From assembly GCF_013122565.1 (NCBI RefSeq), contig NZ_CP053258.1: a DNA stretch of 64,000 nucleotides. One strand, written 5' to 3'. The DNA is from Escherichia coli (GTDB lineage: Bacteria > Pseudomonadota > Gammaproteobacteria > Enterobacterales > Enterobacteriaceae). Positions 4,699 through 62,750 of this stretch are shown here, piece by piece (position 1 is the stretch's first letter; each line of letters opens with the position of its first letter). Position numbers and translations under genes: made by a program. The notes beneath the pieces were generated by a model. It had not been told where the DNA came from, did not search any database, and saw only the letters and a program-made list of their open reading frames with translations.

Positions 4699-4716
4699 TT
4701 GGCACAGTTTTCGCTT
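4699..4716 (+). promoter_or_regulatory. sigma54 promoter (glnAp2), TGGCAC-N5-TCGCT
   Basis: ttggcacagttttcgct matches -24 GG / -12 GC spacing, about 85 nt upstream of glnA ATG. Confidence 0.75.
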
Positions 4717-4798: not shown

Positions 4799-6208
4799 AT
4801 GTCCGCTGAACACGTACTGACGATGCTGAACGAGCACGAAGTGAAGTTTGTTGATTTGCGCTTCACCGATACCAAAGGTAAAGAACAGCACGTCACTATC
4901 CCTGCTCATCAGGTGAATGCTGAATTCTTCGAAGAAGGCAAAATGTTTGACGGCTCCTCGATTGGCGGCTGGAAAGGCATTAACGAATCCGACATGGTGC
5001 TGATGCCAGACGCATCCACCGCAGTGATTGACCCGTTCTTCGCCGACTCTACCCTGATTATCCGTTGCGACATCCTTGAACCTGGCACCCTGCAAGGCTA
5101 TGACCGTGACCCGCGCTCTATTGCGAAGCGCGCCGAAGATTACCTGCGTTCCACTGGCATTGCCGACACCGTACTGTTCGGGCCAGAACCTGAATTCTTC
5201 CTGTTCGATGACATCCGTTTCGGATCATCTATCTCCGGTTCTCACGTTGCTATCGACGATATCGAAGGCGCATGGAACTCCTCCACCCAATATGAAGGTG
5301 GTAACAAAGGTCACCGTCCGGCAGTGAAAGGCGGTTACTTCCCGGTGCCACCTGTAGACTCTGCTCAGGATATTCGTTCTGAAATGTGTCTGGTGATGGA
5401 ACAGATGGGTCTGGTGGTTGAAGCCCATCACCACGAAGTAGCGACTGCTGGTCAGAACGAAGTGGCTACCCGCTTCAATACCATGACCAAAAAAGCTGAC
5501 GAAATTCAGATCTACAAATATGTTGTGCACAACGTGGCGCACCGCTTCGGTAAAACCGCGACCTTTATGCCAAAACCGATGTTCGGTGATAACGGCTCCG
5601 GTATGCACTGCCACATGTCGCTGTCTAAAAACGGCGTTAACCTGTTCGCGGGTGACAAATATGCAGGTCTGTCTGAGCAGGCGCTGTACTACATTGGCGG
5701 CGTAATCAAACACGCTAAAGCGATTAACGCCCTGGCAAACCCGACCACCAACTCTTACAAGCGTCTGGTCCCGGGCTACGAAGCACCGGTAATGCTGGCT
5801 TACTCTGCGCGTAACCGTTCTGCGTCTATCCGTATTCCGGTGGTTTCTTCTCCGAAAGCACGTCGTATCGAAGTACGTTTCCCGGATCCGGCGGCTAACC
5901 CGTACCTGTGCTTTGCTGCCCTGCTGATGGCCGGTCTTGATGGTATCAAGAACAAGATCCATCCGGGCGAAGCCATGGACAAAAACCTGTATGACCTGCC
6001 GCCAGAAGAAGCGAAAGAGATCCCACAAGTTGCAGGCTCTCTGGAAGAAGCACTGAACGAGCTGGATCTGGACCGCGAGTTCCTGAAAGCCGGTGGCGTG
6101 TTCACGGATGAAGCGATCGATGCGTACATCGCTCTGCGTCGCGAAGAAGATGACCGCGTGCGTATGACTCCGCATCCGGTAGAGTTTGAGCTGTACTACA
6201 GCGTCTAA
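4799..6208 (+). CDS. glnA: Glutamine synthetase
   Basis: 469-aa [34 protein letters not shown], classic GS type I. Confidence 0.97.
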
Positions 6209-6278
6209 GTGTTTTAGTTGCCGTGGAAACTTTTCGCCTGTCTCTGGCAGGCCTGGGATCGGTGGCAAGCACATTACG

Positions 6279-6340
6279 CCGGATGCGACGCAAATGCGTC
6301 TTATCCGGCCTACACGGTGATGATGTGGTAGGCCGGAGCA
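6279..6340. repeat. REP (repetitive extragenic palindromic) element pair
   Basis: gccggatgcgacg...cttatccggcctac ... gtaggccgga motif. Confidence 0.8.
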
Positions 6341-6379
6341 GGTGAGTCGCTCTCCAACGTGAAGTTTGTCAGCTATCTG

Positions 6380-6407
6380 TAGCCCATCTCTGCATGGGCT
6401 TTTTTCT
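6380..6407 (+). terminator. Intrinsic terminator downstream of glnA
   Basis: agcccatctctgcatgggct hairpin followed by TTTTTT. Confidence 0.75.
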
Positions 6408-6493
6408 CCGTCAATTCTCTGATGCTTCGCGCTTTTTATCCGTAAAAAGCTATAATGCACTAAAATGGTGCAACCTGTTCAGGAGACTGCTTT

Positions 6494-7543
6494 ATGGCAA
6501 CAGGCACGCAGCCCGATGCTGGGCAGATCCTCAACTCGCTGATTAACAGTATTTTGTTAATCGATGACAACCTGGCGATCCATTACGCCAACCCCGCCGC
6601 GCAACAACTGCTCGCCCAAAGCTCCCGCAAATTGTTTGGTACACCGTTACCGGAACTGTTGAGCTACTTCTCATTAAATATCGAGCTGATGCAAGAAAGT
6701 CTGGAGGCGGGGCAAGGTTTTACCGATAACGAAGTGACGCTGGTCATCGACGGGCGCTCGCATATCCTTTCTGTGACGGCCCAGCGTATGCCGGACGGCA
6801 TGATCCTGCTGGAGATGGCGCCGATGGATAACCAGCGCCGCTTAAGCCAGGAACAGCTACAACATGCTCAACAAGTTGCTGCCCGTGATTTAGTGCGTGG
6901 CCTGGCACATGAGATTAAAAATCCGCTTGGCGGTTTACGTGGCGCGGCGCAGCTTCTCAGCAAAGCATTACCTGACCCTTCACTGCTGGAATATACCAAA
7001 GTGATTATCGAACAGGCGGACCGGCTGCGAAATCTGGTCGACCGTCTGTTGGGGCCGCAACTACCCGGTACGCGCGTTACCGAAAGTATTCACAAAGTGG
7101 CTGAACGCGTGGTGACGCTGGTGTCGATGGAACTGCCGGACAACGTGCGGTTGATTCGTGATTACGACCCCAGCCTGCCGGAACTGGCGCACGACCCGGA
7201 TCAAATTGAACAGGTCTTGCTGAATATTGTGCGCAATGCGCTACAGGCGCTGGGGCCTGAAGGCGGTGAAATCATTCTGCGGACCCGCACCGCGTTTCAA
7301 CTGACCTTACACGGCGAGCGCTATCGGCTGGCGGCGCGGATTGATGTGGAAGACAACGGGCCGGGCATTCCGCCTCATTTGCAGGATACGCTGTTTTACC
7401 CGATGGTCAGCGGCCGCGAAGGTGGCACCGGGCTTGGCTTATCCATCGCCCGTAATTTGATTGATCAGCATTCAGGCAAAATTGAATTTACCAGTTGGCC
7501 AGGTCATACCGAGTTCTCGGTTTACCTGCCTATCAGGAAATAA
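6494..7543 (+). CDS. glnL: Nitrogen regulation sensor histidine kinase NtrB (NRII)
   Basis: 349-aa ORF with H-box ([11 protein letters not shown]) and ATPase G-boxes; follows glnA. Confidence 0.95.
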
Positions 7544-7554
7544 AGGTGACGTTT

Positions 7555-8964
7555 ATGCAACGAGGGATAGTCTGGGTAGTCGATGACGATAGTTCCATCC
7601 GTTGGGTGCTTGAACGTGCGCTCGCTGGAGCGGGTTTAACCTGTACGACATTTGAGAACGGCGCGGAGGTACTGGAGGCGCTGGCGAGCAAAACGCCGGA
7701 TGTGCTGCTTTCAGATATCCGTATGCCGGGAATGGACGGGCTGGCACTGCTCAAGCAGATTAAACAGCGCCATCCGATGCTTCCGGTCATCATTATGACC
7801 GCACATTCCGATCTGGATGCTGCCGTCAGCGCCTATCAACAAGGGGCGTTTGATTATCTGCCCAAACCGTTTGATATCGACGAAGCCGTGGCGCTGGTTG
7901 AGCGCGCCATCAGTCATTACCAGGAACAGCAGCAGCCGCGTAATGTTCAGCTTAATGGCCCAACGACCGATATCATCGGCGAAGCGCCAGCCATGCAGGA
8001 CGTGTTCCGTATTATCGGTCGGCTTTCGCGTTCTTCTATTAGCGTGCTGATTAACGGCGAATCCGGCACCGGTAAAGAACTGGTCGCTCATGCCCTGCAT
8101 CGCCACAGTCCGCGAGCCAAAGCGCCGTTTATCGCGCTGAATATGGCGGCTATCCCGAAAGATTTGATCGAATCAGAACTGTTTGGTCACGAGAAAGGCG
8201 CATTTACCGGCGCGAATACCATTCGTCAGGGGCGTTTTGAACAGGCTGATGGCGGTACATTATTTCTCGATGAAATTGGCGATATGCCGCTGGATGTGCA
8301 GACGCGTTTGCTGCGCGTGCTGGCAGACGGTCAGTTTTACCGCGTTGGCGGCTATGCGCCGGTGAAAGTGGATGTGCGGATTATCGCTGCCACTCACCAG
8401 AATCTCGAACAGCGGGTGCAGGAAGGTAAGTTCCGTGAGGATCTGTTCCACCGCCTGAACGTTATCCGCGTTCATCTGCCGCCGCTGCGCGAACGTCGGG
8501 AAGATATTCCCCGTCTGGCGCGCCATTTTTTACAGGTTGCCGCGCGCGAACTGGGCGTAGAAGCGAAGTTGCTGCATCCGGAAACCGAAGCTGCTCTGAC
8601 GCGTCTGGCGTGGCCAGGCAACGTGCGCCAGCTGGAAAACACCTGCCGCTGGCTAACAGTGATGGCCGCCGGGCAGGAAGTGTTGATTCAGGATTTGCCC
8701 GGCGAACTGTTTGAATCAACGGTTGCGGAGAGTACTTCGCAAATGCAACCGGACAGTTGGGCGACACTTTTAGCGCAGTGGGCAGACAGAGCGCTGCGTT
8801 CCGGTCATCAAAACCTGCTTTCCGAAGCGCAGCCTGAGCTGGAGCGGACATTATTGACGACCGCGTTGCGACATACACAGGGGCATAAACAGGAAGCGGC
8901 GCGGCTACTCGGCTGGGGCCGCAACACCCTGACGCGTAAGTTAAAAGAGCTAGGGATGGAGTGA
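7555..8964 (+). CDS. glnG: Nitrogen regulation response regulator NtrC (NRI), sigma54 activator
   Basis: Starts [12 protein letters not shown] (receiver domain), AAA+ GESGTGKE and GAFTGA motifs, C-terminal HTH; start chosen at ATG 7555 with RBS aaggtga rather than the longer ORF start. Confidence 0.95.
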
Positions 8965-9074
8965 TTCAGGCTTGTGTGTAAAGATTGATTATTGAGCGCA
9001 AATTGCTGGTATTTTGCGCTTTACTGTTCCGATAAGTTCAGTATGATCTTGCCCGGAAAACGGGGAGAGTCATT

Positions 9075-9185
9075 ATGCTGGAATCAATAATTAATCTGGT
9101 ATCGAGTGGCGCAGTTGACAGCCACACACCGCAAACTGCTGTTGCTGCCGTGCTGTGTGCCGCGATGATTGGGCTGTTTAGTTGA
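9075..9185 (+). CDS. yshB: Small protein YshB (36 aa)
   Basis: ATG with ggggagag RBS; MLESIINLVSSGAVDSHTPQTAVAAVLCAAMIGLFS, position between glnG and hemN. Confidence 0.6.
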   Translation: MLESIINLVSSGAVDSHTPQTAVAAVLCAAMIGLFS

Positions 9186-9189
9186 AGCT

Positions 9190-9300
<111 letters not shown>

Positions 9301-9384
9301 ACAAAAGCAATAATTTCAACAGGTTTTGTTGACCAGCGCATCAGGCAACCTTGTTCTCAGCACATTGATAGCGCCATTCACTAT

Positions 9385-10758
9385 TTAAATCACCCGAGAG
9401 AACTGCTGCATCCGCGCTTTCTGGCGCAGATAGGTATCAAAGCACATGCAAATGTTGCGGATCAGCAAGCGACCTTTCGCCGTCACCTGTATTCCCTTCT
9501 CATCCACATCCACCAGCCCATCTTTTGCTAATGGGGCGAGCAGCTTGAGATCTTCCGCAAAGTAATCAGCGAAGTGCAAATCCCACTGTTTCTCAATAGG
9601 GGCGTAATCCAGACGGAAGTTGCAGATGAGCGACTTAATCACATCGCGGCGAATACAGTCATCACGCGTTAGCGCAATACCACGCCACAGCGCGTTGCCT
9701 TGTTCATCCACTTGCTGATAGTACTGCTTCAACTCTTTCTGGTTCTGCGCGTAGCAGTCGCCAATCATGCTGATGGCGGAAACGCCCATCCCCAGCAGAT
9801 CGGTATCGCCCTGAGTGGTGTAGCCCTGGAAGTTACGATGCAGCACGCCTTCACGCTGGGCCACCGCCAGCTCGTCATCCGGACGGGCAAAGTGATCCAT
9901 ACCGATAAACTGATAGCCCGATTGCGTCAGGAAGGCGATGGTTTCCTGCAGGATATCGAGTTTTTGCTGCGGACTCGGCAGGTCAGCATCTTTGATTTTG
10001 CGCTGAGCAGCAAAAATGGTCGGCAGATGCGCATAGTTAAAGACGCTCAGACGGTCAGGGTTTAGCTCCGCCACGCGTTTCAGGGTAAAGGCGAAACTTT
10101 CCGGCGTCTGTTTCGGCAGGCCGTAAATCAGGTCGATGTTGGTGGAGGTAAAGCCAATCTCACGCGCATGGTTAAGCAGCGCAAAGATAAACTCTTCATC
10201 CTGCTCGCGGTTAACCAGACGTTGCACTTCTTTGTTGAAGTCCTGCACGCCCATACTCAGGCGATTAAAGCCCTCGGCGCGTAAATGATCGAGTACATCC
10301 AGTTCGATTTCCCGCGGATCGACTTCGATCGAAATCTCCGCATCGGCATTGAACTGGAAGTTTTCGCGCAGCAGCTTCATCAGGCGGCTGATTTGCGCTT
10401 TATTAAGATACGTCGGCGTTCCGCCGCCCCAGTGCAGCTGGCTGACGTGACGCCCGGCGAACAGCGGTGCACGATGGACGATTTCTTGCTCCAGCGCGTC
10501 CAGATACTGATCGGCCTTGTGCTGCTGGCGAGTAACAATCTTATTACAACCGCAGAAGTAACAAAGCTTATGGCAGAACGGGATATGTACGTAGAGAGAT
10601 AATGGACGCTCAGGATAGCGCGCCACGGCTTGTAAAAACGCCTGTTCGCCGAAGTCTTCTGAAAACTCCAGCGCGGTCGGGTACGAGGTGTATCGTGGCC
10701 CGGAATAGTTATATTTCTGGATCAGGGCCAGATCCCAGTCGATTTGCTGTACAGACAT
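9385..10758 (-). CDS. hemN: Oxygen-independent coproporphyrinogen III oxidase (radical SAM)
   Basis: ORF with CHKLCYFCGC motif and WGGGTPTYL; start trimmed to MSVQQIDWDL. Confidence 0.93.
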   Translation of the reverse strand: MSVQQIDWDLALIQKYNYSGPRYTSYPTALEFSEDFGEQAFLQAVARYPERPLSLYVHIPFCHKLCYFCGCNKIVTRQQHKADQYLDALEQEIVHRAPLFAGRHVSQLHWGGGTPTYLNKAQISRLMKLLRENFQFNADAEISIEVDPREIELDVLDHLRAEGFNRLSMGVQDFNKEVQRLVNREQDEEFIFALLNHAREIGFTSTNIDLIYGLPKQTPESFAFTLKRVAELNPDRLSVFNYAHLPTIFAAQRKIKDADLPSPQQKLDILQETIAFLTQSGYQFIGMDHFARPDDELAVAQREGVLHRNFQGYTTQGDTDLLGMGVSAISMIGDCYAQNQKELKQYYQQVDEQGNALWRGIALTRDDCIRRDVIKSLICNFRLDYAPIEKQWDLHFADYFAEDLKLLAPLAKDGLVDVDEKGIQVTAKGRLLIRNICMCFDTYLRQKARMQQFSRVI

Positions 10759-10946
10759 GCTCACTCCTTCCGATGGCGTCTCTGGCGGCTACGGCGTACC
10801 GGCGGATGCCCGTTTCGGGTCATCAGCCGGTTGCGCAGCCACTTTTGTCGCCGCGACAACCGCTGTAGTTTAACGAATAACCACACCAGATAACATATAA
10901 CCGGAAGGGTTATCAGCAGAACGGGAAGGCCCACGGCGGAAATCCG

Positions 10947-11456
10947 TTAGTTACCCCGCAGCAGACGCATCATGTCTTCTTGCTTCTCGTCTTCTTCCTC
11001 TTCTTCGTCATCGTCATAAGAGAGGCCGAGTTTCTGCATCAACTCATCAATACGATCCAGTTTAGCATCCACCCAGGATTGCTCTTCGGCGCTCAGGGTT
11101 TCGCCTGCTTCCAGACGTTCCAGCAGCGCATCCAGACGCTCATCCGTTTCCAGTAATTCCAACTCCGCCTGCGGTGAAAGCATAGGTTTCTCACTCTTCG
11201 GTTTGTGCTGTTTGGTGACTTTTTCAGTCACGCCCAATGGAATAGGGGTTTTGCTGCCAATACGTGGATCTTTCGGTGCGTTCTGGCCTTTGCTGCCTGA
11301 CGTGGTGTTACCGCCCGCTGCGCGGCTGCCCGGCGCATGACCACGACGTTTTTTCTGACGCTTACGGTCACGAGCTTCCTGATCCAGCTCCTCGCGTGTT
11401 TTTCGACGCGCTTTTGCATGACCTTTGCTGCGTGAGTTTGAAGATGATGGTTTCAT
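10947..11456 (-). CDS. yihI: Der GTPase-activating protein YihI
   Basis: Highly basic N-terminus, acidic C-terminal tail [14 protein letters not shown]; start set at internal MKPSSSNSR. Confidence 0.85.
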
Positions 11457-11524
11457 AATGGTTCGTCTTTTAGCCGTTTTATTCAGTATAGATTTGCGGC
11501 GGAATCTAACAGAAAGCAAGCAAA

Positions 11525-11789
11525 GAAAAAAGGCGACAGATTACTCTGTCGCCTTTTTTCCTGACTCATAACCCTTAACGGGTCTTACAATCCTTGCAGG
11601 CCGCCAACACACCCTGTTTTTCCATTAGCCGGAACAATCCGTGTTGATTCCATTTCCGTTTAATTACGTCTCCGGACGTTTGTCTTCCTGACAATCCTCT
11701 GTCTTCGCCTCCTGGCGCTCCTGACCCTCATCCTGAGTCATTGTTCCTGTTAGCGTCCTCGCTCTATGGGTGCTACTTTACGCCTTTGC
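11525..11789 (-). ncRNA. csrC: CsrC small RNA (CsrA-sequestering)
   Basis: Reverse complement reads ATAGAGCGAGGACGCTAACAGGAACAATGACTCAGGATGAGGGTCAGGAGCG... with many GGA motifs, ending in the hairpin aaggcgacagagtaatctgtcgcc + U-run; sits between engB and yihI. Confidence 0.85.
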
Positions 11790-12037
11790 TTTAAACAAAC
11801 AATCAACCGCCATCAGCATTTGCACATTTTCAGAGTTTTATATAAAAGCAATTAGCTGATTTATATAGCTTATTTGATATGGATCGCAGAATTTTCTCTG
11901 CTATTTCGCATAAAGACTATCGGCAATGTCTCACAAAGCGTATGGCTTTTACTTACAACGCTCACGCCGAAAAATCCGCCTTTTATTATGGTTCAGGTAT
12001 AATCGCCACAAAGCTTTGACTGACGGAGACGACCGCT

Positions 12038-12670
12038 TTGACTAATTTGAATTATCAACAGACGCATTTTGTGATGAGTGCGCCAGATATTCGCCACCTA
12101 CCTTCCGATACCGGAATTGAAGTGGCTTTTGCAGGCCGTTCCAACGCAGGTAAATCCAGCGCGCTGAACACGCTGACTAACCAGAAAAGCCTGGCTCGTA
12201 CCTCAAAAACCCCTGGACGCACCCAGCTTATCAACCTGTTTGAAGTGGCTGACGGCAAGCGTCTGGTTGACTTGCCTGGGTACGGTTATGCGGAAGTCCC
12301 GGAAGAGATGAAGCGCAAATGGCAGCGCGCGCTCGGCGAATACCTCGAAAAACGTCAGAGCCTGCAAGGTCTGGTGGTGCTAATGGATATTCGCCATCCG
12401 CTGAAAGATTTGGATCAGCAGATGATTGAGTGGGCGGTAGACAGCAATATCGCCGTTCTGGTGCTGCTGACCAAAGCGGACAAACTGGCAAGCGGCGCAC
12501 GTAAAGCGCAATTGAATATGGTGCGTGAAGCGGTGCTGGCGTTTAACGGTGATGTGCAGGTTGAAACGTTTTCTTCGCTGAAGAAACAAGGCGTGGACAA
12601 GCTGCGGCAGAAACTGGATACCTGGTTTAGCGAGATGCAGCCTGTAGAAGAAACGCAGGACGGCGAATAA
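12038..12670 (+). CDS. engB: Ribosome biogenesis GTPase EngB/YihA
   Basis: 210-aa ORF with [10 protein letters not shown]-loop; TTG start codon at 12038. Confidence 0.9.
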
Positions 12671-12689
12671 TTTTCTTGCCTTAAAGCTT

Positions 12690-12772
12690 GTGCCGGATGT
12701 GGCGTATCCGGCCCGTAAATTCAATAGATTACAATTCTACCGTTGGCCTGATAAACATGGCGCATCAGGCAT
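12690..12772. repeat. REP elements
   Basis: gccggatgtggcgtatccggc ... ggcctgataaacatggcgcatcaggc. Confidence 0.7.
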
Positions 12773-12795
12773 TACGGACTTTTTCTTTCGCCCAA

Positions 12796-12904
12796 TAAAA
12801 AACGCCCCAGTCATTACTGACTGGGGCGGCTAAAATATTCAGCCAAATCCGATTACGTGAAGTAAAAGGTCTGAAAGATAGAACATCTTACCTCTGTACC
12901 CTAC
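12796..12904 (-). ncRNA. spf: Spot 42 small RNA
   Basis: Reverse complement reads GTAGGGTACAGAGGTAAGATGTTCTATCTTTCAGACC...GCCGCCCCAGTCAGTAATGACTGGGGCGTTTTTTATT, matching Spot 42 and its terminator; located between polA and engB. Confidence 0.9.
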
Positions 12905-13051
12905 GCGACTAACTTTACTCTTTTTTGTTCAGTTCAGAAAGCACTTTTTGTAATTTTTTTTCAGTTGTTGCATAGGAATTTCTAATAGCCATCACAAAAC
13001 GTGACAGCTTATGTTGCTTACTTACGAAAAAAGGGCATGTTCAGGCGAATC

Positions 13052-15838
13052 TTAGTGCGCCTGATCCCAGTTTTCGCCACTCCCCACTTCCACCAGCAAC
13101 GGCACATCCAGACGGGTACAGTTTTCCATCAGTTGATGAATCTGCTTCGCGACGGCATCGACATCATCTTTATGAACTTCAAATACCAGTTCATCGTGTA
13201 CCTGCATGATCATACGCACACGCGGTTGCTCAGCCTGTAACCACGCATCAACGGCAATCATCGCCCGTTTGATAATGTCGGCGGCGGTTCCCTGCATTGG
13301 CGCGTTAATAGCTGCACGTTCAGCCGCTGCACGACGAGCACCATTGCTGGATTTGATATCCGGCAGATACAGACGGCGTCCGTCCAGCGTTTCAACGTAG
13401 CCCTGCTCTTTCGCCTGAGCACGGGTGCGTTCCATATACTCCAGCACGCCAGGGTAGCGTTCGAAGTAAAGGTCCATGTACTTCTGCGCTTCTTTACGTG
13501 GAATGTTCAATTGCCGCGCCAGACCGAAAGCACTCATGCCATAAATCAGACCAAAGTTGATCGCTTTCGCGCTACGGCGTTGCTCGCTGGTGACGGTTTC
13601 CAGTGGCAAACCAAACACTTCTGCCGCCGTTGCCCGGTGGATATCTTTTCCTTCCGCGAATGCGGTCAGCAAGCCTTTGTCACGCGAGAGATGCGCCATA
13701 ATGCGCAGTTCAATCTGCGAGTAGTCCGCTGAGACAATCACATAATCCTCTGGCGCAATAAACGCCTGGCGGATACGACGACCTTCTTCGTTACGCACCG
13801 GAATGTTTTGCAGGTTAGGATCGGTTGACGATAAACGTCCCGTTGCAGTTACTGCCTGGTGATAAGAGGTATGCACACGCCCGGTTTTCGGGTTGATCAT
13901 CAGCGGCAGCTTGTCGGTGTAAGTCGACTTCAGCTTCGCCAGACCACGATACTCCAGAATCACTTTTGGCAACGGATAGTCCAGCGCCAGTTCTTCCAGT
14001 ACCTCTTCCGACGTTGACGGCGCGCCACCCGGCGTTTTCTTCAGCGGTTTAATGCCCTGTTTTTCAAACAGAATGGTTTGTAACTGCTTGGTGGAAGAAA
14101 GGTTAAATTCTTCACCTGCAATTTCATGCGCTTTCTTTTCCAGCTCAGCAAGACGAAGGGTGAGCTCTTCAGAATGATTGTGCAGCACTTTCGGATCGAT
14201 CTTCACACCGTTACGTTCAATGCGTGAAAGCACCGGCACCAGCGGCATTTCGATATTCTCGAAGACGTTCAACGGCCCTTTGTGTTTTTGCAGATCCGGC
14301 CACATTTTCAGATGCAACTGCAAGGTGACATCCGCATCTTCGGCGGCGTAACGTCCGGCCTCTTCGAGGGCAATCTGGTTAAAGGTCAGTTGATTTTTGC
14401 CTTTACCCGCAATCTCTTCAAAAGTGATGGTTTTGTGCTTCAACCAACGTTCCGCGAGGCTGTCCATATCGTGACGCCCGGCAACGCTATTGAGAATGTA
14501 GGACTCCAGCATGGTATCAAACGCAATCCCACGCAGCTCAATGCCGTAATTCGCCAGAATACCGCGGTCGTATTTCAGGTTTTGCCCGACCTTCAGCGCC
14601 TTTTCATTTTCCAGCAGCGGTTTTAGCAACTCGAGTGCACGCTCGCGAGAGATTTGATCGGGCGCATCAAGATAATCATGAGCAACCGGAATATATGCCG
14701 CTACGCCTGGCTCGATAGCAAAAGAAAGCCCGACCAGGTTAGCAGAGATGTTATCGAGGCTGTCGGTTTCGGTATCAAATGCAAATACCGGCGCTTTTTC
14801 CAGCTTCGCAATCCACGCTTTCAGTGTTTCTTCATCAAGGATGGTGACGTAGTTGTCATAAGAAATCACCGTTGCCGTCACTTCTGGCGCTTCGTCTGCA
14901 ACACTGGTTTCCTGCGGTCTGGCTGCGGGTTTCGCCCCTTTAGCCTGTAACCATTTGCCCGCTTCGACATCAGCAGTCCAGCGTTTGAACTCATACTTTT
15001 TGAACAGCCCCAACAACTCTTCCGCCGCCGGTTGCTGCACTTCCAGTTGTTCACAGGTCAGCTCCAGTTCAACGTCGGTTTTAATCGTCGCCAGCTGGTA
15101 TGAGAGATAAGCAACTTCTTTGTTTTGCTCGAGCTTCGCTGCCATTGTTTTCGCGCCACGGAAGCTCAACCCAGCAATTTTTTCTGGCTCGGCATACAGC
15201 GTATCCAGTCCGCCAAGACCTTGCAGCAATGCCTGCGCGGTTTTTTCACCGACGCCCGGTACGCCAGGGATGTTATCAGAGGAGTCACCCATCAGCGCCA
15301 GGAAGTCGATGATCAGTTCAGGCGGCACGCCGTACTTATTCACCACCTCTTCCGGTCCGAGGATGGTATTCGTCATGGTATTGATAAGCGTAATATTTGG
15401 CGTCACCAGCTGCGCCATATCTTTATCGCCAGTGCTGATCAGCACCGGACGCCCAGCTTTTTCGGCTTCGCGCGCCAGAGTACCGATAACGTCGTCCGCT
15501 TCTACGCCAGAAACCGCCAGCAGCGGCAGTCCCATCGCTTTAACCATCGCGTGCAGAGGTTCGATTTGTGCTCGCAGATCGTCCGGCATTGGCGGGCGAT
15601 GTGATTTGTAATGTTCAAACAGTTCATCACGAAAGGTTTTTCCCTTGGCGTCAAAGACCACCGCTGCATGCGTCGGTTTATATTGCATGATCAGACTGCG
15701 CAGCATGTTGAGGACACCATACATCGCACCGGTAGGCTCGCCTGCGCTGTTAGTCAGCGGGGGAAACGCGTGATATGCGCGATAAAGATAAGATGAACCA
15801 TCTACAAGGATAAGTGGATTTTGGGGGATCTGAACCAT
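13052..15838 (-). CDS. polA: DNA polymerase I
   Basis: 928-aa [28 protein letters not shown]...; 5'-3' exo, 3'-5' exo and polymerase domains. Confidence 0.97.
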
Positions 15839-15960
15839 AATGTCCGTGCCTGTTTATCAGTTTATGGGTAAAGGATGCCACAGACAGGATGAAAACATGA
15901 GTTTTTCGCCGCTTTTCGTGAAAATCTTTTGTAGATCTTCTGGATCGCTCGCAAATCGTC

Positions 15961-15969
15961 ATGTGGATA
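15961..15969 (-). promoter_or_regulatory. DnaA box (TTATCCACA) in polA upstream region
   Basis: tgtggataa on + strand is a perfect reverse-complement DnaA box; a second near-consensus box (tgtggatag) lies near 16101. Confidence 0.5.
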
Positions 15970-16201
15970 ACTTTGTGCATAAATTATTTACATCGCTTTT
16001 AATTTATTATCATGCTTTTTACAGCATGATGTTTGTCTTTGTTTTTCATGTAGTTAAAAATAAAGCCATCCCTAATAATTGAGATAATGGGATTTTTTCT
16101 AATGTGGATAGATATGAATTATTTTTCTCCTTAAGGATCATCCGTTATTTGGGGCGTTTTCTGCTAAAATCTGCGCCTTGCGCTTCTTTAGCGCACTGTC
16201 T

Positions 16202-17134
16202 ATGGCTAACCTTTTGAATAAATTCATTATGACGAGAATACTCGCTGCGATAACCCTTTTGCTGAGTATCGTATTGACCATTTTGGTCACTATTTTTTGC
16301 TCCGTCCCGATCATCATTGCCGGGATTGTAAAACTATTGCTACCTGTGCCAGTCATTTGGCGAAAGGTTTCGCGTTTTTGTGATTTTATGATGTATTGCT
16401 GGTGCGAAGGTCTGGCGGTATTACTGCATCTGAACCCACACCTGCAATGGGAAGTTCACGGGCTGGAAGGGTTAAGTAAGAAGAACTGGTATCTGCTTAT
16501 TTGTAACCACCGTAGTTGGGCAGATATTGTCGTACTGTGCGTGCTGTTTCGTAAGCACATTCCGATGAATAAATATTTCCTCAAGCAGCAACTGGCCTGG
16601 GTGCCTTTTCTTGGCCTGGCGTGCTGGGCGCTGGATATGCCGTTTATGAAGCGTTATTCCCGCGCTTATTTATTACGTCATCCGGAGCGACGTGGTAAAG
16701 ATGTCGAAACCACTCGGCGTTCTTGTGAAAAGTTTCGCCTGCATCCCACCACAATTGTCAATTTCGTTGAAGGCTCCCGTTTCACGCAAGAAAAACATCT
16801 ACAAACCCACTCCACTTTTCAAAACTTGTTGCCACCAAAGGCGGCAGGCATTGCGATGGCGCTAAATGTACTGGGTAAACAATTCGATAAACTTCTTAAT
16901 GTTACGCTGTGTTATCCGGACAATAACCGTCAGCCGTTCTTCGATATGTTAAGCGGTAAACTGACGCGAATTGTCGTACATGTGGATTTGCAGCCTATTT
17001 CCGATGAGTTACATGGCGACTACATCAATGACAAAAGCTTTAAGCGCCATTTTCAGCAATGGCTGAACTCACTGTGGCAGGAAAAAGACCGGCTTCTGAC
17101 GTCGTTGATGTCATCACAGCGGCAGGACAAGTAA
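16202..17134 (+). CDS. yihG: Acyltransferase (1-acyl-sn-glycerol-3-phosphate acyltransferase family) YihG
   Basis: NHRSWADI acyltransferase motif, N-terminal TM segment; start set at MANLLNKF. Confidence 0.85.
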
Positions 17135-17140
17135 ATTTTG

Positions 17141-17172
17141 CTCGCCTCTGAATGAGCAGAGGCGAGTGAGTA
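17141..17172. terminator. Bidirectional terminator between convergent yihG and yihF
   Basis: ctcgcctctg-aatgag-cagaggcgag hairpin flanked by T/A runs. Confidence 0.65.
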
Positions 17173-17174
17173 TT

Positions 17175-18605
17175 TTAATGAACAAAACGTCCGGCACGAG
17201 ACATAAATTCTTCTTCGCTCATCTCCTGTCCGTTAAAAACAACTTTACCCGGTGTATAACGCAGTTGCAGCGAGGCGGTATTGTTGTCAATCGTGATTAA
17301 CTGAAACATCTGACCTAAGGTCATCATCCCGCTGATTTGTTTATCAGCCTGCTTTTGCGCTTTTTCCGCATCCATTCCTTCAGATAAATTAAGCTGTTTT
17401 GCGATTTCTGTGACGACATTAAGCGGTAACTTCACATCAAAATTGAGCGATTTGATATCTTTGTTTGTGGATGATGAAGATTTGGCTGGGTCGGCAATAC
17501 TGATATCCAGATTGGCATTTAGTTCGCCGAGTGCGTTCTTCCATCTTACCGGTTGTTTAATGGTCGGCTCACTTTGTTGTAATAACGGTAAATACTCTTT
17601 GAACAATGCAGCATTCACTTCTTGCAGAGCAACTTCATCGTTTGCTAACTCAGGGTGTGCAGCAAGCTGCTTCTGCATCGCAATGTTATAATGGATGATA
17701 AATTGGCGCACTGCTGAGGGATCAATAGATTCAGCAATCAATGACCACTCACCACTACCGAGTTGCTGATTCCCTTTTGTTAACTTATCAAGTTCGTAGG
17801 TCAGATTGACATTGATATAATCTTTGTCTTTAACGCGATCCAGCCTGGTTTTTGCAACGAAAGCATCGATTTGGGCAACGTCTTCCCCCTGATTGATAAT
17901 ATTAACCTGATTAAATTTCGACTCGCTTTCACCAACCGGAAATTTCTTTTCTTCTAATCGTGTCAGAGAATCAATGGTAAAACTTTTTGCCGTTACTTTG
18001 TTCATTGGTGATAATTGCAGAACAATATCTTCGACTTTGCCTTCAATATCCAGGTTAGACAATGAACTACCATCACCATTAAAAGTAAACTGGCCTTCAC
18101 CAAAGGAAAACTTTCCATACTCTGCAGGGGCAACATCTAATGTCGTGGAGAAGGAGCCACCAAACGCGAATCGCAATGTTGCTTCCACGGGCGATTTATT
18201 TTTCGCGGCAATAAATAGCGGTTGTGTCAGTTCATTATTCACTAAGCTCACTTTTGCCGCTGCCAGTGCTGGGATGACATTACCATGCATTAACATTGTG
18301 ATGGGCAACGGACCGTGCTCAACATCCACATCAAATGCAACTTTCTGGCCTGGCTTGATATTGAGATCGGGTGCACCGTTATCAAATGAAATTTGCATTT
18401 GAAAATGGGAATTAAAAAAGCCTTTGTCAAAGTTTTTATAACTTAACGTCATATCGTAGGCATGTTCACCTTTCTTTTTAGCATCGTTAAAATCTTTAAT
18501 AAATTTTTCGACACCAGGCTGAATTTGCGTACCTGTGTACCATGTGCCACCACCCCAGATTACGGCTAACGCAACAATAACACCTGTAGCTGACTTACGT
18601 ATCAT
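17175..18605 (-). CDS. yihF: DUF945-family exported protein YihF
   Basis: ORF with signal-anchor-like N-terminus; start set at MIRKSATGVIVALAV. Confidence 0.8.
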   Translation of the reverse strand: MIRKSATGVIVALAVIWGGGTWYTGTQIQPGVEKFIKDFNDAKKKGEHAYDMTLSYKNFDKGFFNSHFQMQISFDNGAPDLNIKPGQKVAFDVDVEHGPLPITMLMHGNVIPALAAAKVSLVNNELTQPLFIAAKNKSPVEATLRFAFGGSFSTTLDVAPAEYGKFSFGEGQFTFNGDGSSLSNLDIEGKVEDIVLQLSPMNKVTAKSFTIDSLTRLEEKKFPVGESESKFNQVNIINQGEDVAQIDAFVAKTRLDRVKDKDYINVNLTYELDKLTKGNQQLGSGEWSLIAESIDPSAVRQFIIHYNIAMQKQLAAHPELANDEVALQEVNAALFKEYLPLLQQSEPTIKQPVRWKNALGELNANLDISIADPAKSSSSTNKDIKSLNFDVKLPLNVVTEIAKQLNLSEGMDAEKAQKQADKQISGMMTLGQMFQLITIDNNTASLQLRYTPGKVVFNGQEMSEEEFMSRAGRFVH

Positions 18606-18713
18606 ATAAATATTCCCTGATAAAACAGCAAAACTTTGAATATCCACTTATGCTGAAATAATGTCCAGCGGCAGGATGCATTATCAGAATGTATTTATAT
18701 TTATTAAATAATA

Positions 18714-18743
18714 AAAAAAGCCCGTGAATATTCACGGGCTTTA
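18714..18743 (-). terminator. Intrinsic terminator downstream of dsbA
   Basis: aaagcccgtgaatattcacgggcttttttt on the minus strand. Confidence 0.75.
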
Positions 18744-18759
18744 TGTAATTTACATTGAA

Positions 18760-19386
18760 TTATTTTTTCTCGGACAGATATTTCACTGTATCAGCATACT
18801 GCTGAACAAAAACATCCATATTGCTGGTATCCATACCCTGCGGATTCAGCTGATATTTACCGTTAACAAACATCGCCGGAACACCACGCAATTGCACGTC
18901 AGCTGCAGCTTTTTCCTGCTGAGCGACCAGAGATTTCACCACGAAGCTGTTCCACGCCGCGTCGTACTCTTCACCTTTAATACCTGCGTTGATAAATACA
19001 TCGCGGATATCAGAAGCAGAACGAATGGTCTGGGTTTTCTGTACGCCTTCAAACAGCGGAACAGTGACTTTGTCTTCCACGCCCAGCGCCATCGCCACAG
19101 CCCATGCCTGAGTCAGATCTTTGCCCAGGTCACCACCCATGAAGTTGACGTGGTATTTAGTCATCTTCACGCCTTCCGGCAGTTTTTTCTTCACATTATC
19201 AGAAATATGCAGAACTTCTTCAAACTGATAGCAGTGCGGGCAGAAGAAAGAGAAAAACTCCAGCACTTGCGGCGCGCCAGCTACCGGTTTTTCCAGGGTA
19301 GTGTACTGTTTACCATCTTCATACTGCGCCGCCGATGTGCTAAACGCTAAAACTAAACCAGCCAGCGCCAGCCAAATCTTTTTCAT
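18760..19386 (-). CDS. dsbA: Periplasmic thiol:disulfide oxidoreductase DsbA
   Basis: 208-aa ORF with signal peptide and CPHC active site. Confidence 0.97.
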
Positions 19387-19402
19387 GATCTACTCTCTCC
19401 GA

Positions 19403-20389
19403 TTAATACATAGGTGTTAATTGCAAAGGGGGTTCTTGTAGAACTTTTGCCTGTTCTATAAAAGTCGCCGTCTGTCGTAGCCAGTAATCTTCCCCGGTTA
19501 ACCACGGGAAATTTTTCGGGAACGCGGGATCAGCCCAACGCCGTATTAGCCAGGCAAGATAATAAACCAAACGCATGGCGCGTAAAGGTTCAATCAGTCC
19601 GATTTCAGCGGTGTCGAACTCGCTAAATTCTTCATAAGCTTCAATAATAGTTTCCAGTTGCATCCGCTGCTCGGCTTTATCGCCATTGAGCAACATCCAC
19701 AAATCCTGAATAGCTGGACCATTACGTGCATCATCCAGATCAACAAACATTGGACCATCGCGCCAGAGAATATTCCCGGCGTGGCAGTCTCCATGTAGCC
19801 GCAGAACGGTGAAATCTTCCCGCCAGTGTGCTGTAACGGCGGCGATCAGCTCATCTGTCGCTTTCAGGAATGCCGCTTTCAACCCGGAAGGTATCAGTGT
19901 AGCGTCCTCAAACAGCTTGCGTGGCTCAATGAGATATTCATTCAGACCGATGGTCGGGCGATGGATAAAAAGCTGTTTGCGCCCCGTCTGGTGCATACGC
20001 CCTAAATAACGCCCAACCGCTTCCATCTGATCGATATTATCAGCTTCGAACTGGCGACCACCGACGCTGGGAAAAACAGCGAAATAAAATCCCTGATGAT
20101 TCAATAAAGTCTGACCGTTAAAAGCCACAGGTGCTGCAACCGGAACTTCATCATTTACCAGCTGCAACGCAAATTGATGTTCTTCGAGGATTTGATCGGC
20201 TGTCCAACGTTCAGGACGATAAAATTTGACGACAAAACGTCGACGATCTTCGTCCTGAAATTGATAGACACGGTTTTCATAGCTGTTAAGCGGGGTAAGA
20301 CCGGAATCCACCCGGATCCCATGCTCAAACAGAGCGTCCATGATGGTATCCGGGTGTAGTGTCTGGAAAGTAAAAGCGCTGTTGTTCAT
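19403..20389 (-). CDS. srkA: Stress response Ser/Thr kinase SrkA (YihE)
   Basis: 328-aa ORF with kinase-like HGDCHAGNIL and DLDD motifs; immediately upstream of dsbA. Confidence 0.9.
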   Translation of the reverse strand: MNNSAFTFQTLHPDTIMDALFEHGIRVDSGLTPLNSYENRVYQFQDEDRRRFVVKFYRPERWTADQILEEHQFALQLVNDEVPVAAPVAFNGQTLLNHQGFYFAVFPSVGGRQFEADNIDQMEAVGRYLGRMHQTGRKQLFIHRPTIGLNEYLIEPRKLFEDATLIPSGLKAAFLKATDELIAAVTAHWREDFTVLRLHGDCHAGNILWRDGPMFVDLDDARNGPAIQDLWMLLNGDKAEQRMQLETIIEAYEEFSEFDTAEIGLIEPLRAMRLVYYLAWLIRRWADPAFPKNFPWLTGEDYWLRQTATFIEQAKVLQEPPLQLTPMY

Positions 20390-20465
20390 CCTATCATCCG
20401 GAAAACATTACGAATGATGAAGGATATCATTTCACGATGATTTTGGTGGCGCCGCTTACAAGCTT

Positions 20466-20735
20466 TTACTCTTTAATTACGCCGCGAGCGCGTAACAGCG
20501 CCGTTTTGAAGTCTTCTTCATAATCTTTCTGCAAACCCGGGATCACCGCATCTTTCGCGGAATCACGCATTTTCAGGTGATAGATCAGAATGTCATCCGT
20601 CAAATCCGCCAGTTCGCCGTCAAAACCTGACTCTTTCGCCAGTTTCTGCAAAAATTGCAACAGGTTAAGGTCTGGCTCTTTTTGCCAGGCTGGCTGGAGG
20701 AGTTCAATAACTTCATTCAGACGTTTACATTTCAT
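20466..20735 (-). CDS. yihD: DUF1040 protein YihD
   Basis: Start set at [23 protein letters not shown]; 89 aa. Confidence 0.85.
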
Positions 20736-20804
20736 AGTGATGCTCCTTACTCTTGAGACAGACACGTTAGCAGGGTCAATCCCACAATAAAAGAGGCGAT
20801 ATCG

Positions 20805-21389
20805 GTGAATCTGATGACGACGATAACAGGCGTTGTGCTGGCGGGCGGTAAAGCCAGACGAATGGGCGGCGTAGATAAAGGATTGCTGGAATTAAATGGC
20901 AAACCGCTGTGGCAACATGTCGCTGACGCGCTTATGACGCAGCTCTCTCACGTCGTGGTTAATGCTAATCGTCATCAGGAAATCTATCAGGCAAGCGGTC
21001 TGAAAGTGATTGAAGATTCACTGGCGGATTACCCAGGCCCTCTGGCAGGAATGCTTTCAGTAATGCAGCAGGAAGCTGGTGAGTGGTTTTTGTTTTGTCC
21101 GTGCGATACGCCTTACATTCCCCATGATTTAGCCGCCCGGCTTAATCATCAGCGCAAAGATGCGCCTGTCGTGTGGGTCCATGACGGTGAACGCGATCAC
21201 CCGACTATTGCTCTGGTAAACCGCGCTATTGAGCCTTTGTTGCAGGAATATTTGCAAACCGGAGAACGACGGGTAATGGCATTCTTGCGTCTGGCTGGCG
21301 GGCATGCGGTTGATTTCAGCGATCATAAAGATGCATTTGTTAACGTGAATACGCCAGAGGAGCTTGCCCGATGGCAGGAAAAACGATGA
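20805..21389 (+). CDS. mobA: Molybdenum cofactor guanylyltransferase MobA
   Basis: 194-aa [20 protein letters not shown] nucleotide-binding motif. Confidence 0.93.
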
Positions 21390-21898
21390 TACCGTTGCTC
21401 GCCTTTGCTGCGTGGAGTGGCACCGGAAAAACTACGCTTTTGAAAAAACTGATCCCGGCATTATGCACCAGAGGGATCCGTCCGGGGCTGATTAAGCATA
21501 CGCACCATGATATGGATGTTGATAAGCCAGGCAAAGATAGCTATGAGCTGCGCAAGGCTGGCGCGGCACAAACCATCGTTGCCAGCCAGCAACGATGGGC
21601 CTTGATGACGGAAACACCAGACGAAGAAGAGCTGGATCTACATTTTCTCGCCAGTCGAATGGATACCTCAAAGCTGGATTTGATTCTGGTCGAAGGGTTT
21701 AAGCATGAAGAGATCGCAAAGATTGTGCTGTTTCGCGATAGAGCCGGGCATCGACCGGAAGAATTAGTGATAGACAGGCATGTTATTGCTGTAGCCAGTG
21801 ATGTGCCGCTTAATCTTGATGTCGCGTTACTGGATATTAATGATGTTGAGGGGCTGGCTGATTTTGTGGTGGAGTGGATGCAAAAGCAGGACGGATAA
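21371..21898 (+). CDS. mobB: Molybdopterin-guanine dinucleotide biosynthesis adapter MobB
   Basis: 175-aa ORF with Walker A GTGKTT; overlaps mobA 3' end. Confidence 0.92.
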
Positions 21899-21904
21899 GC
21901 AAGA

Positions 21905-21950
21905 GTAGGCTGGATAAGACGCGCCAGCGTCGCATCCGGCATTTTTTTCT
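21905..21950. repeat. REP element
   Basis: ggctggataagacgcgccagcgtcgcatccggc. Confidence 0.7.
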
Positions 21951-35017: not shown

Positions 35018-35220
<203 letters not shown>

Positions 35221-62640: not shown

Positions 62641-62676
62641 TGATGCCGGATGCGACGTAAACGCCTTATCCGGCCT
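62641..62676. repeat. REP element
   Basis: tgccggatgcgacgtaaacgccttatccggcctac. Confidence 0.75.
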
Positions 62677-62750
62677 ACATGACGTTGCAATTTATTGAAT
62701 CTGAATGATTTTTAGGCCAAATAAGGTGTGCAGCACCGCATCCGGCAACG

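What the first reader, a model, noticed from the sequence alone, without database searches (positions are those of the whole stretch)
6209..6407. glnA 3' UTR carrying a REP element and a strong terminator: candidate 3'UTR-derived sRNA
Roughly 200 nt follow the glnA stop before a strong intrinsic terminator (6380-6407), and the segment contains a REP pair (6279-6340). A 3'UTR-derived sRNA (GlnZ) has been described for glnA in enterobacteria. Here the UTR is lengthened by a REP insertion, which may alter processing or base-pairing potential.
Basis: partly seen in the sequence, partly recalled or inferred. Interest (0 to 1): 0.35.

Follow-up and report, generated by a model that had tools for sequence, protein, structure and literature searches.

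The report
Known GlnZ small RNA, K-12 type
The stretch after the glutamine synthetase gene is the already characterised E. coli small regulatory RNA GlnZ, in the REP-containing form first studied in strain K-12, so the finding is correct but ordinary.

Summary
glnA ends at 6208. A 197-nt 3'UTR (6209-6405) follows, with one complete REP hairpin (6278-6313), a 10-nt inverted REP remnant (6328-6337), and an intrinsic terminator (stem 6381-6399, T-run 6400-6405).

Window 6212-6405 is 193/194 identical to the ncRNA glnZ (b4836) annotated in E. coli K-12 MG1655. The 21-nt seed (6213-6233), the RNase E region around the stop codon and the terminator are identical. The one difference, C64U at 6275, turns a C-G pair of the long stem into U-G without changing the predicted fold.

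Its processing, structure and targets (sucA, glnP, aceE) have been tested experimentally. About 29% of 5,426 complete E. coli genomes carry this type.

In 23 of the 24 enterobacterial species representatives returned by a seed scan, the seed sits directly before the terminator. Only E. albertii shares the K-12 layout.

One new side observation: the hairpin just after the seed (6236-6252) looks like a relic of the ancestral terminator.

Verdict: already known, low interest.

The parts
4700..4715 (+). sigma-54 type promoter motif TGGCAC-N5-TCGCT upstream of glnA (glnAp2). It is the NtrC-dependent source of the glnA-GlnZ transcript.
   Evidence: Pattern match. Walling et al. showed dependence of GlnZ on NtrC and the glnA promoter in K-12.
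4799..6208 (+). glnA (glutamine synthetase, 469 aa), the parental mRNA of GlnZ.
   Evidence: ORF. RefSeq annotates glnA under every E. coli match. The last 376 nt carry 7 synonymous differences from K-12 and encode the same protein.
6193..6212 (+). Region around the stop codon with the two RNase E cleavage sites. Predicted 5' ends are GlnZ213 at 6193 and GlnZ194 at 6212.
   Evidence: Positions computed from the 3' end at 6405. The sequence is identical to K-12. The sites were mapped and mutated in K-12 by Miyakoshi et al., and the 213, 194 and 174 nt species are in Walling et al..
6212..6405 (+). GlnZ sRNA, major 194-nt form (K-12 type / class III).
   Evidence: 193/194 identical to MG1655 ncRNA glnZ b4836.
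6213..6233 (+). Seed region TTTAGTTGCCGTGGAAACTTT.
   Evidence: Identical in K-12 and O157-type UTRs. Its 16-nt core is exact in 24 enterobacterial glnA 3'UTRs. Predicted mostly unpaired, mean 0.69 against 0.31 for the body. Predicted duplexes with K-12 sucA, glnP and aceE leaders are -20.5, -18.4 and -21.1 kcal/mol.
6236..6252 (+). First hairpin GCCTGTC-TCT-GGCAGGC. The U-rich stretch before it holds the GlnZ174 end (6232). It is possibly a relic of the ancestral terminator hairpin.
   Evidence: Folds at -10.6 kcal/mol. The alignment with the O157-type UTR runs through it, 30/34. It is 13/20 identical to the terminator in the same register; the joint chance of similarity plus a hairpin is 3 in 127,952 genomic 24-mers.
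6278..6313 (+). Complete REP element inside GlnZ.
   Evidence: Sub-threshold match to the REP-derived Rfam family naRNA4, 30.5 bits against a gathering score of 59.5.
6328..6337 (+). 10-nt inverted REP remnant that pairs with 6304-6313. It forms the tip of the long stem (about 6256-6378) that brings seed and terminator close together.
   Evidence: Inverted repeat I3 is 100% complementary. MFE fold is -78.8 kcal/mol, z = -3.4. RNase III probing of this stem in K-12 is in Walling et al..
6275..6275 (+). The only difference from K-12 GlnZ: T instead of C (GlnZ position 64).
   Evidence: C-G becomes U-G in the stem with the same MFE structure. The allele is absent from all 1,567 complete E. coli genomes that carry this UTR type.
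6381..6405 (+). Rho-independent terminator (stem 6381-6399, U-run 6400-6405) and the 3' end of GlnZ.
   Evidence: Identical in all E. coli UTR types, and its stem is conserved in 24 species.
6451..6472 (+). Context, not part of GlnZ: glnL promoter -10 box TATAAT (6451-6456) overlapping an NtrC-type palindrome TGCACTAAAATGGTGCA (6456-6472), before glnL (6494..7543).
   Evidence: Sequence. Identical to K-12 over 129 nt downstream of GlnZ. The assignment rests on established knowledge of glnLp (Ueno-Nishio 1984, cited in PMC9731577).

Best explanation
This is the glnA 3'UTR-derived, Hfq-dependent small RNA GlnZ in its K-12-type (class III) form. Under nitrogen limitation, NtrC and sigma-54 drive glnA transcription, which ends at the terminator at 6381-6405. 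RNase E cuts on either side of the stop codon and releases mainly a 194-nt RNA (6212-6405). Its single-stranded 5' seed (6213-6233) pairs with the leaders of sucA, glnP and aceE and represses them. This shifts 2-oxoglutarate towards glutamate and glutamine synthesis. The REP-containing middle folds into a long stem that keeps seed and terminator near each other and is an RNase III substrate in vitro.

Shown here: sequence identity with the annotated RNA, the anatomy, the predicted fold and seed complementarity. Taken from K-12 experiments in the literature: expression, processing, Hfq dependence and target repression.
For: Window 6212-6405 is 193/194 identical to MG1655 ncRNA glnZ b4836, which lies 3 nt after the glnA stop as it does here. 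The 21-nt seed and the terminator are identical to both K-12 and O157 types. The 16-nt seed core lies downstream of glnA in 24 species representatives of Enterobacteriaceae.

The predicted fold leaves the seed mostly unpaired and puts the REP region in a long stem. The seed pairs with K-12 leaders as follows. glnP pairs at -22..-11, matching the published site just upstream of the SD. aceE pairs over a stretch that includes -99, the published compensatory-mutation position. sucA pairs at -20.5 kcal/mol. Shuffled seeds reached these energies in 23, 2 and 13 of 300 trials respectively. A sigma-54 promoter motif lies upstream of glnA.

Published experiments on the essentially identical K-12 sequence cover northern blots, NtrC and PglnA dependence, RNase E site mutants, RNase III probing and compensatory mutations in sucA, glnP and aceE.
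Against: Nothing in the sequence contradicts it. The limits are as follows. No expression data exist for this particular strain. The targets were taken from K-12 because sucA, glnP and aceE lie outside the window. The duplex energies are only modestly better than shuffled controls for sucA and glnP. Rfam has no GlnZ family, so there is no covariance-model confirmation. Three sequences gave no covariation for or against the long stem.
Confidence: 0.96

Rival explanations
1. The region is only a passive 3'UTR. On this view the REP element acts as an mRNA-stabilising or decay-blocking hairpin for glnA, and the terminator simply separates glnA from glnLG. No trans-acting RNA would be involved.
For: REP hairpins at mRNA 3' ends are known stabilisers (established knowledge). 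The REP here is a very stable hairpin, -23.3 kcal/mol. Deleting the terminator slightly lowered GlnA in K-12.
Against: The sequence is 193/194 identical to an RNA shown experimentally to act in trans. The 16-nt seed core is kept exactly in 24 species while the rest of the UTR is replaced wholesale, which a passive UTR would not explain. Partial UTR deletion (Delta-glnZ) did not change GlnA or NtrC levels in K-12.
Confidence: 0.03
2. The C64U allele, or the REP stem in this lineage, changes GlnZ processing or target range relative to K-12.
For: T6275 is absent from all 1,567 complete E. coli genomes with this UTR type. It weakens the stem by about 2 kcal/mol, -78.8 against -81.0.
Against: The change is C-G to U-G and leaves the MFE structure and the seed accessibility unchanged. 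It lies 40 nt from the seed and far from the RNase E sites. K-12, O157 and Salmonella forms with far larger differences all repress sucA and glnP.
Confidence: 0.03

Closest known systems
E. coli K-12 GlnZ (b4836), the K-12 type of Miyakoshi et al. 2022 and class III of Walling et al. 2022
   Same: Same locus and 197-nt UTR. Same seed 4 nt after the stop codon, same first hairpin, same REP, same terminator. Identity is 193/194.
   Different: One base: C64U at window 6275, a wobble-preserving change in the stem. The surrounding genome is only 97.7-98.5% identical to the nearest complete E. coli genomes.
EsrF / O157-type GlnZ (class I, 85-nt UTR)
   Same: Same seed and same terminator, both identical. 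Same parental gene. Same targets according to Walling et al..
   Different: In the O157 type the seed lies directly before the terminator. A 38-nt segment with a small hairpin lies between stop codon and seed, and there is no REP. That 38-nt segment has no counterpart in the window's insert.
O111-type GlnZ (230-nt UTR) and Salmonella / class II GlnZ
   Same: Seed followed by terminator, with nitrogen-limitation induction.
   Different: The extra DNA lies upstream of the seed rather than downstream. The O111-type copies seen here also lack one C in the seed tail, GGAAATTTC.
E. albertii glnA 3'UTR
   Same: It is the only other species representative among the 24 with the K-12 arrangement, including the first hairpin, the REP and the remnant.
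   Different: Differs at 17 aligned columns (15 substitutions, 2 single-base insertions), all between the seed and the terminator.
Other 3'UTR-derived Hfq sRNAs released by RNase E (CpxQ, SdhX, NarS)
   Same: Same biogenesis logic: parental mRNA, RNase E cleavage, and a terminator that serves as the Hfq-binding 3' end (discussed in PMC9731577).
   Different: Different genes, seeds and targets.

Membership tests
GlnZ sRNA (glnA 3'UTR-derived) | Lies immediately downstream of glnA on the same strand, upstream of glnLG | tested here: met
   glnA 4799..6208 (+), glnL 6494..7543 (+). MG1655 glnZ is annotated in the same place.
GlnZ sRNA (glnA 3'UTR-derived) | Conserved ~20-nt seed UUUAGUUGCCGUGGAAACUUU | tested here: met
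   Present at 6213-6233 and identical to K-12 and O157 types. The 16-nt core is exact in 24 enterobacterial glnA UTRs.
GlnZ sRNA (glnA 3'UTR-derived) | Conserved Rho-independent terminator with a U-run (Hfq-binding 3' end) | tested here: met
   Stem 6381-6399 plus six Ts at 6400-6405. Identical across E. coli types.
GlnZ sRNA (glnA 3'UTR-derived) | Seed complementary to the sucA, glnP (and, in E. coli, aceE) leaders | tested here: met
   Duplexes of -20.5, -18.4 and -21.1 kcal/mol with K-12 leaders. The glnP and aceE sites coincide with published positions. The targets come from K-12, not from this genome.
GlnZ sRNA (glnA 3'UTR-derived) | Released from glnA mRNA by RNase E at sites flanking the stop codon | not testable with these tools
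   The sequence around the stop codon (6150-6274) is identical to K-12, where the sites were mutated. Cleavage itself needs RNA data.
GlnZ sRNA (glnA 3'UTR-derived) | Induced by nitrogen limitation through NtrC and sigma-54 at the glnA promoter; Hfq-dependent | not testable with these tools
   A sigma-54 motif is present at 4700-4715. Expression was shown only for K-12, O157, O111 and Salmonella in the literature.
K-12 type / class III GlnZ | Seed next to the stop codon, with a REP-containing insertion between seed and terminator; 197-nt UTR | tested here: met
   The seed starts 4 nt after the stop. The REP is at 6278-6313 and the UTR is 197 nt.
REP (repetitive extragenic palindromic) element | ~35-nt imperfect palindrome of the GCCGGATG...CTTATCCGGCCTAC kind, repeated in intergenic regions of the genome | tested here: met
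   4 full-pattern copies in the window against 0.00 expected. 8 tail motifs against 0.04 expected. Stable hairpin.
BIME / REP pair | Two complete REPs in inverted orientation | tested here: not met
   The second unit is only a 10-nt remnant, 6328-6337. True inverted REP clusters occur elsewhere in the window, for example 9200-9302.
Rfam naRNA4 (RF02564) | Score at or above the gathering threshold of 59.5 bits | tested here: not met
   30.5 bits on the plus strand and 26.4 on the minus strand. The match covers only the REP.

The most novel reading that the evidence does not exclude
The K-12-type GlnZ may not have arisen by a simple insertion between seed and terminator. Instead, a minimal class-I GlnZ (stop codon, 4 nt, seed, terminator hairpin) may have lost its U-run and gained a downstream extension of about 128 nt carrying the REP and a second, intact terminator copy. 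The old terminator hairpin would survive as the first stem-loop (6236-6252), with two compensatory pair changes, and now sits just downstream of the GlnZ174 processing end. That would be an example of an sRNA growing at its 3' end by terminator read-through and duplication.
Probability: 0.35. Interest if true: 0.3.

Novelty: already known. Interest (0 to 1): 0.08.

Why it matters
GlnZ matters biologically because it links nitrogen assimilation to the TCA cycle by repressing sucA, glnP and aceE. All of this is published for a sequence that differs from the window by one base. The analysis adds three small points.

- A population count: about 29% of complete E. coli genomes carry the K-12 type.
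- The K-12 layout is the exception among enterobacterial species. In 23 of 24 representatives the seed abuts the terminator.
- A hint that the first hairpin is a relic terminator.

None of these changes the understanding of the system.

Tried and rejected
- **Rfam scan at E <= 10**. There is no GlnZ family. The only hits were a sub-threshold REP-derived naRNA4 match and a chance Ysr49 match over the terminator.
- **Duplicated seed-terminator modules.** I tested whether the 5' and 3' parts of the UTR are duplicated modules as wholes. The result was not significant: score 12 against a shuffle mean of 12.7. Only the fixed-register comparison of the first hairpin with the terminator held up. The gapped local test alone gave only p of about 0.04-0.05.
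- **O157 segment inside the K-12 insert.** I tested whether the O157-type 38-nt post-stop segment reappears inside the K-12 insert. It does not: 1887 of 5000 shuffles scored as well.
- **Covariation support for the long stem versus the local REP hairpin**, using window, K-12 and E. albertii. The result was inconclusive. There were no double-sided changes and both structures were about 98% paired.
- **Naming the source organism through exact-protein look-ups.** GlnL is the common E. coli protein. The PolA variant is rare, but contigs that carry it have other UTR types.
- **Small ORFs overlapping the UTR** (6186..6320, 6223..6345 and antisense 6102..6293). I did not pursue them. They are short, start with TTG or GTG, and lie inside a characterised non-coding RNA.

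Full report
**Observation**

The window carries glnA at 4799..6208 on the plus strand, with stop codon TAA at 6206-6208. glnL follows at 6494..7543, then glnG.

Between stop codon and terminator lie 172 nt. The terminator has a 7-bp stem at 6381-6399 and a run of six T at 6400-6405. It is the only plus-strand terminator-like site in 5900-6800. It folds at -10.0 kcal/mol, z = -3.2.

The REP call is correct for one unit. GCCGGATGCGACGCAAATGCGTCTTATCCGGCCTAC at 6278-6313 matches a REP pattern found four times in the window against 0.00 expected. Its tail motif occurs eight times against 0.04 expected. The hairpin folds at -23.3 kcal/mol.

The "pair" is overstated. The second element is a 10-nt inverted remnant (6328-6337), perfectly complementary to 6304-6313. 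Outside the REP unit, the insert has no other copy in the window.

**What it is**

RefSeq annotates an ncRNA, glnZ (b4836), in E. coli K-12 MG1655 at 4056428..4056621. It is 194 nt long and starts 3 nt after the glnA stop. Window 6212-6405 is 193/194 identical to it.

The single difference is C64U at window 6275. In the predicted fold this turns a C-G pair into U-G. The minimum-energy structure is unchanged (-78.8 against -81.0 kcal/mol) and so is seed accessibility. The 129 nt downstream of GlnZ are identical to K-12. The last 376 nt of glnA differ at 7 synonymous sites.

Rfam 15 contains nothing that matches as GlnZ. Its best hit is a sub-threshold match of the REP to the REP-derived family naRNA4, at 30.5 bits against a gathering score of 59.5.

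**How it works**

Two papers characterise this RNA in K-12.

Walling et al. (bioRxiv 10.1101/2022.04.01.486790) report the following:
- Species of 213, 194 and 174 nt ending at the terminator, with 194 nt dominant.
- Dependence on NtrC and on the glnA promoter rather than an internal promoter.
- A long double-stranded REP-containing stem that RNase III cleaves in vitro.
- Direct repression of glnP and sucA by the seed, shown with compensatory mutations.

Miyakoshi et al. (eLife 2022, PMC9731577) report the following:
- Two RNase E sites flanking the stop codon.
- Release from the mRNA is needed for sucA repression.
- aceE is an E. coli-specific target (G12C / C-99G).

In window coordinates, the published ends fall at 6193, 6212 and 6232. 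The seed is TTTAGTTGCCGTGGAAACTTT at 6213-6233. A sigma-54 motif, TGGCACAGTTTTCGCT, lies at 4700-4715 upstream of glnA.

I checked the seed against K-12 leaders, since the targets lie outside the window.

| Target | Duplex energy (kcal/mol) | Position relative to start codon | Shuffled seeds reaching this energy |
|---|---|---|---|
| sucA | -20.5 | -48..-27 | 13/300 |
| glnP | -18.4 | -22..-11 | 23/300 |
| aceE | -21.1 | stretch including -99 | 2/300 |

The glnP site matches the published site just upstream of the SD. The aceE stretch covers the published mutation position.

The predicted unpaired probability averages 0.69 for the seed and 0.31 for the body. Sequence identity, anatomy, fold and complementarity are shown here. 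Expression, processing and repression are inferred from K-12 experiments.

**The "REP-lengthened UTR" is the published K-12 type**

Miyakoshi et al. define three E. coli UTR types: K-12 (197 nt), O157 (85 nt) and O111 (230 nt). [quoted passage not shown] They argue that the stem keeps seed and terminator at a similar distance.

My alignment reproduces this. In the O157 and O111 types the seed lies directly before the terminator. In the window and in K-12 it lies 4 nt after the stop.

Of 5,426 complete E. coli genomes, 5,425 match the locus and 1,570 (29%) carry the full K-12-type UTR. A 61-nt probe specific to the insert finds 1,567. In an evenly spaced sample of 40 hits, 12 were K-12 type, 20 spanned 289 bp (O157 type), 7 spanned 434 bp (O111 type) and 1 was a deletion.

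**Cross-species check of the seed**

A scan of one genome per species (GTDB r220) for the 16-nt core TAGTTGCCGTGGAAAC returned 84 stretches. Twenty-four of them lie downstream of a glnA C-terminus in Enterobacteriaceae. The genera include Citrobacter, Enterobacter, Trabulsiella, Buttiauxella, Lelliottia, Superficieibacter, Huaxiibacter, Pseudenterobacter and E. albertii. The remainder are scattered through unrelated phyla, and I did not examine them further. The list lacks E. coli and Salmonella, so it is probably not exhaustive.

In 23 of the 24, the seed ends 22-23 nt before the T-run, with 5-215 nt between stop codon and seed. Only E. albertii has the K-12 arrangement.

The K-12 layout is a derived, Escherichia-restricted form.

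**Structure**

E. albertii differs from the window at 17 aligned columns (15 substitutions and 2 single-base insertions), all between seed and terminator. With only three sequences there are no double-sided changes. The long stem and the local REP hairpin are equally compatible. This test was inconclusive.

**Side observation: possible relic terminator**

The alignment of the O157-type UTR with the window's 5' part runs past the seed into the first hairpin, at 30/34 identity. The 20 nt after the seed are 13/20 identical, ungapped, to the terminator.

- Only 0.16% of genomic 20-mers reach 12/20.
- Only 1.4% of genomic 24-mers form a 7-bp hairpin at that offset.
- Both conditions together occur in 3 of 127,952.

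By my reading of the two stems, two pairs differ by compensatory changes (C-G to U-A, A-U to G-C). A gapped local test alone is weak, at p of about 0.04.

This suggests the K-12 type is a minimal class-I GlnZ whose terminator lost its U-run and was followed by a REP-bearing extension with a second terminator. Neither paper uses words such as duplication or remnant. This remains a hypothesis.

**Source lineage**

The first 25 kb are at best 97.7% identical to any complete E. coli genome, and the glnALG region at best 98.5%. T6275 is absent from all 1,567 K-12-type genomes.

One draft contig (L115) is 99.5% identical over 6381-21917. It carries the O111-type UTR and is only 98.5% identical upstream. 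The UTR therefore coincides with a recombination boundary. I could not name the organism.

**Verdict**

The feature is the already known GlnZ sRNA of the K-12 type, one neutral-looking base away from the reference. Interest is low.

Noticed in passing
window 6236-6252 (compare 6381-6399): The first hairpin after the GlnZ seed resembles the terminator hairpin in the same register. It is 13/20 identical, with two apparently compensatory pair changes and no U-run. This suggests a relic of the ancestral terminator. Neither GlnZ paper mentions it.
   Followed up: partly
window 1-25000 and 6275: The window is only 97.7-98.5% identical to the best of 5,426 complete E. coli genomes. Its GlnZ allele (T6275) is absent from all 1,567 genomes with this UTR type. 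The source is a poorly represented Escherichia lineage, possibly Shigella or a cryptic clade. The organism was not identified.
   Followed up: partly
window 6208-6381 versus locus L115: Draft contig L115 (GCA_052983875.1) is 99.5% identical to the window over 6381-21917. It carries the O111-type UTR and is 98.5% identical upstream. The glnA 3'UTR therefore coincides with a recombination breakpoint between alleles.
   Followed up: no
L003, L094, L097, L115 (O111-type UTRs): All O111-type UTRs seen here have GGAAATTTC instead of GGAAACTTTC at the 3' edge of the seed, a one-base deletion. The 145-bp extra segment contains a called 59-aa minus-strand ORF with no Pfam hit (L094 1223-1402).
   Followed up: no
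L010, L022, L057, L062, L074, L075, L077, L088 (glnA 3'UTRs of Citrobacter, Lelliottia, Buttiauxella, Huaxiibacter and others): In 8 of 24 species, the DNA between the glnA stop and the seed contains a sequence matching the ERIC2 primer (up to 4 mismatches). Two of these also match ERIC1R. This indicates ERIC elements inserted upstream of the seed. The GlnZ papers do not mention ERIC. B. agrestis (L086) has a REP-like tail upstream of the seed instead.
   Followed up: partly
L107 (GCA_037022705.1), glnA 3'UTR: An odd 175-nt UTR that reads like an indel-ridden mixture of K-12-type and O157-type sequence. It is probably an assembly or consensus artefact.
   Followed up: no
window 6451-6472: The glnL promoter -10 box TATAAT overlaps an NtrC-type palindrome, TGCACTAAAATGGTGCA. 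It is identical to K-12 and is the known autoregulated glnLp.
   Followed up: no
window 9200-9302, 21905-21940, 35022-35200, 62645-62746: Other REP or BIME clusters in the window. Some are true inverted REP pairs, for example downstream of glnG/yshB at 9200-9302.
   Followed up: no
L004 (E. coli AMSHJX01, NZ_CP030939.1): In this one genome glnA and most of GlnZ are missing. A truncated clsB pseudogene abuts the terminator region, and glnL is annotated as frameshifted.
   Followed up: no
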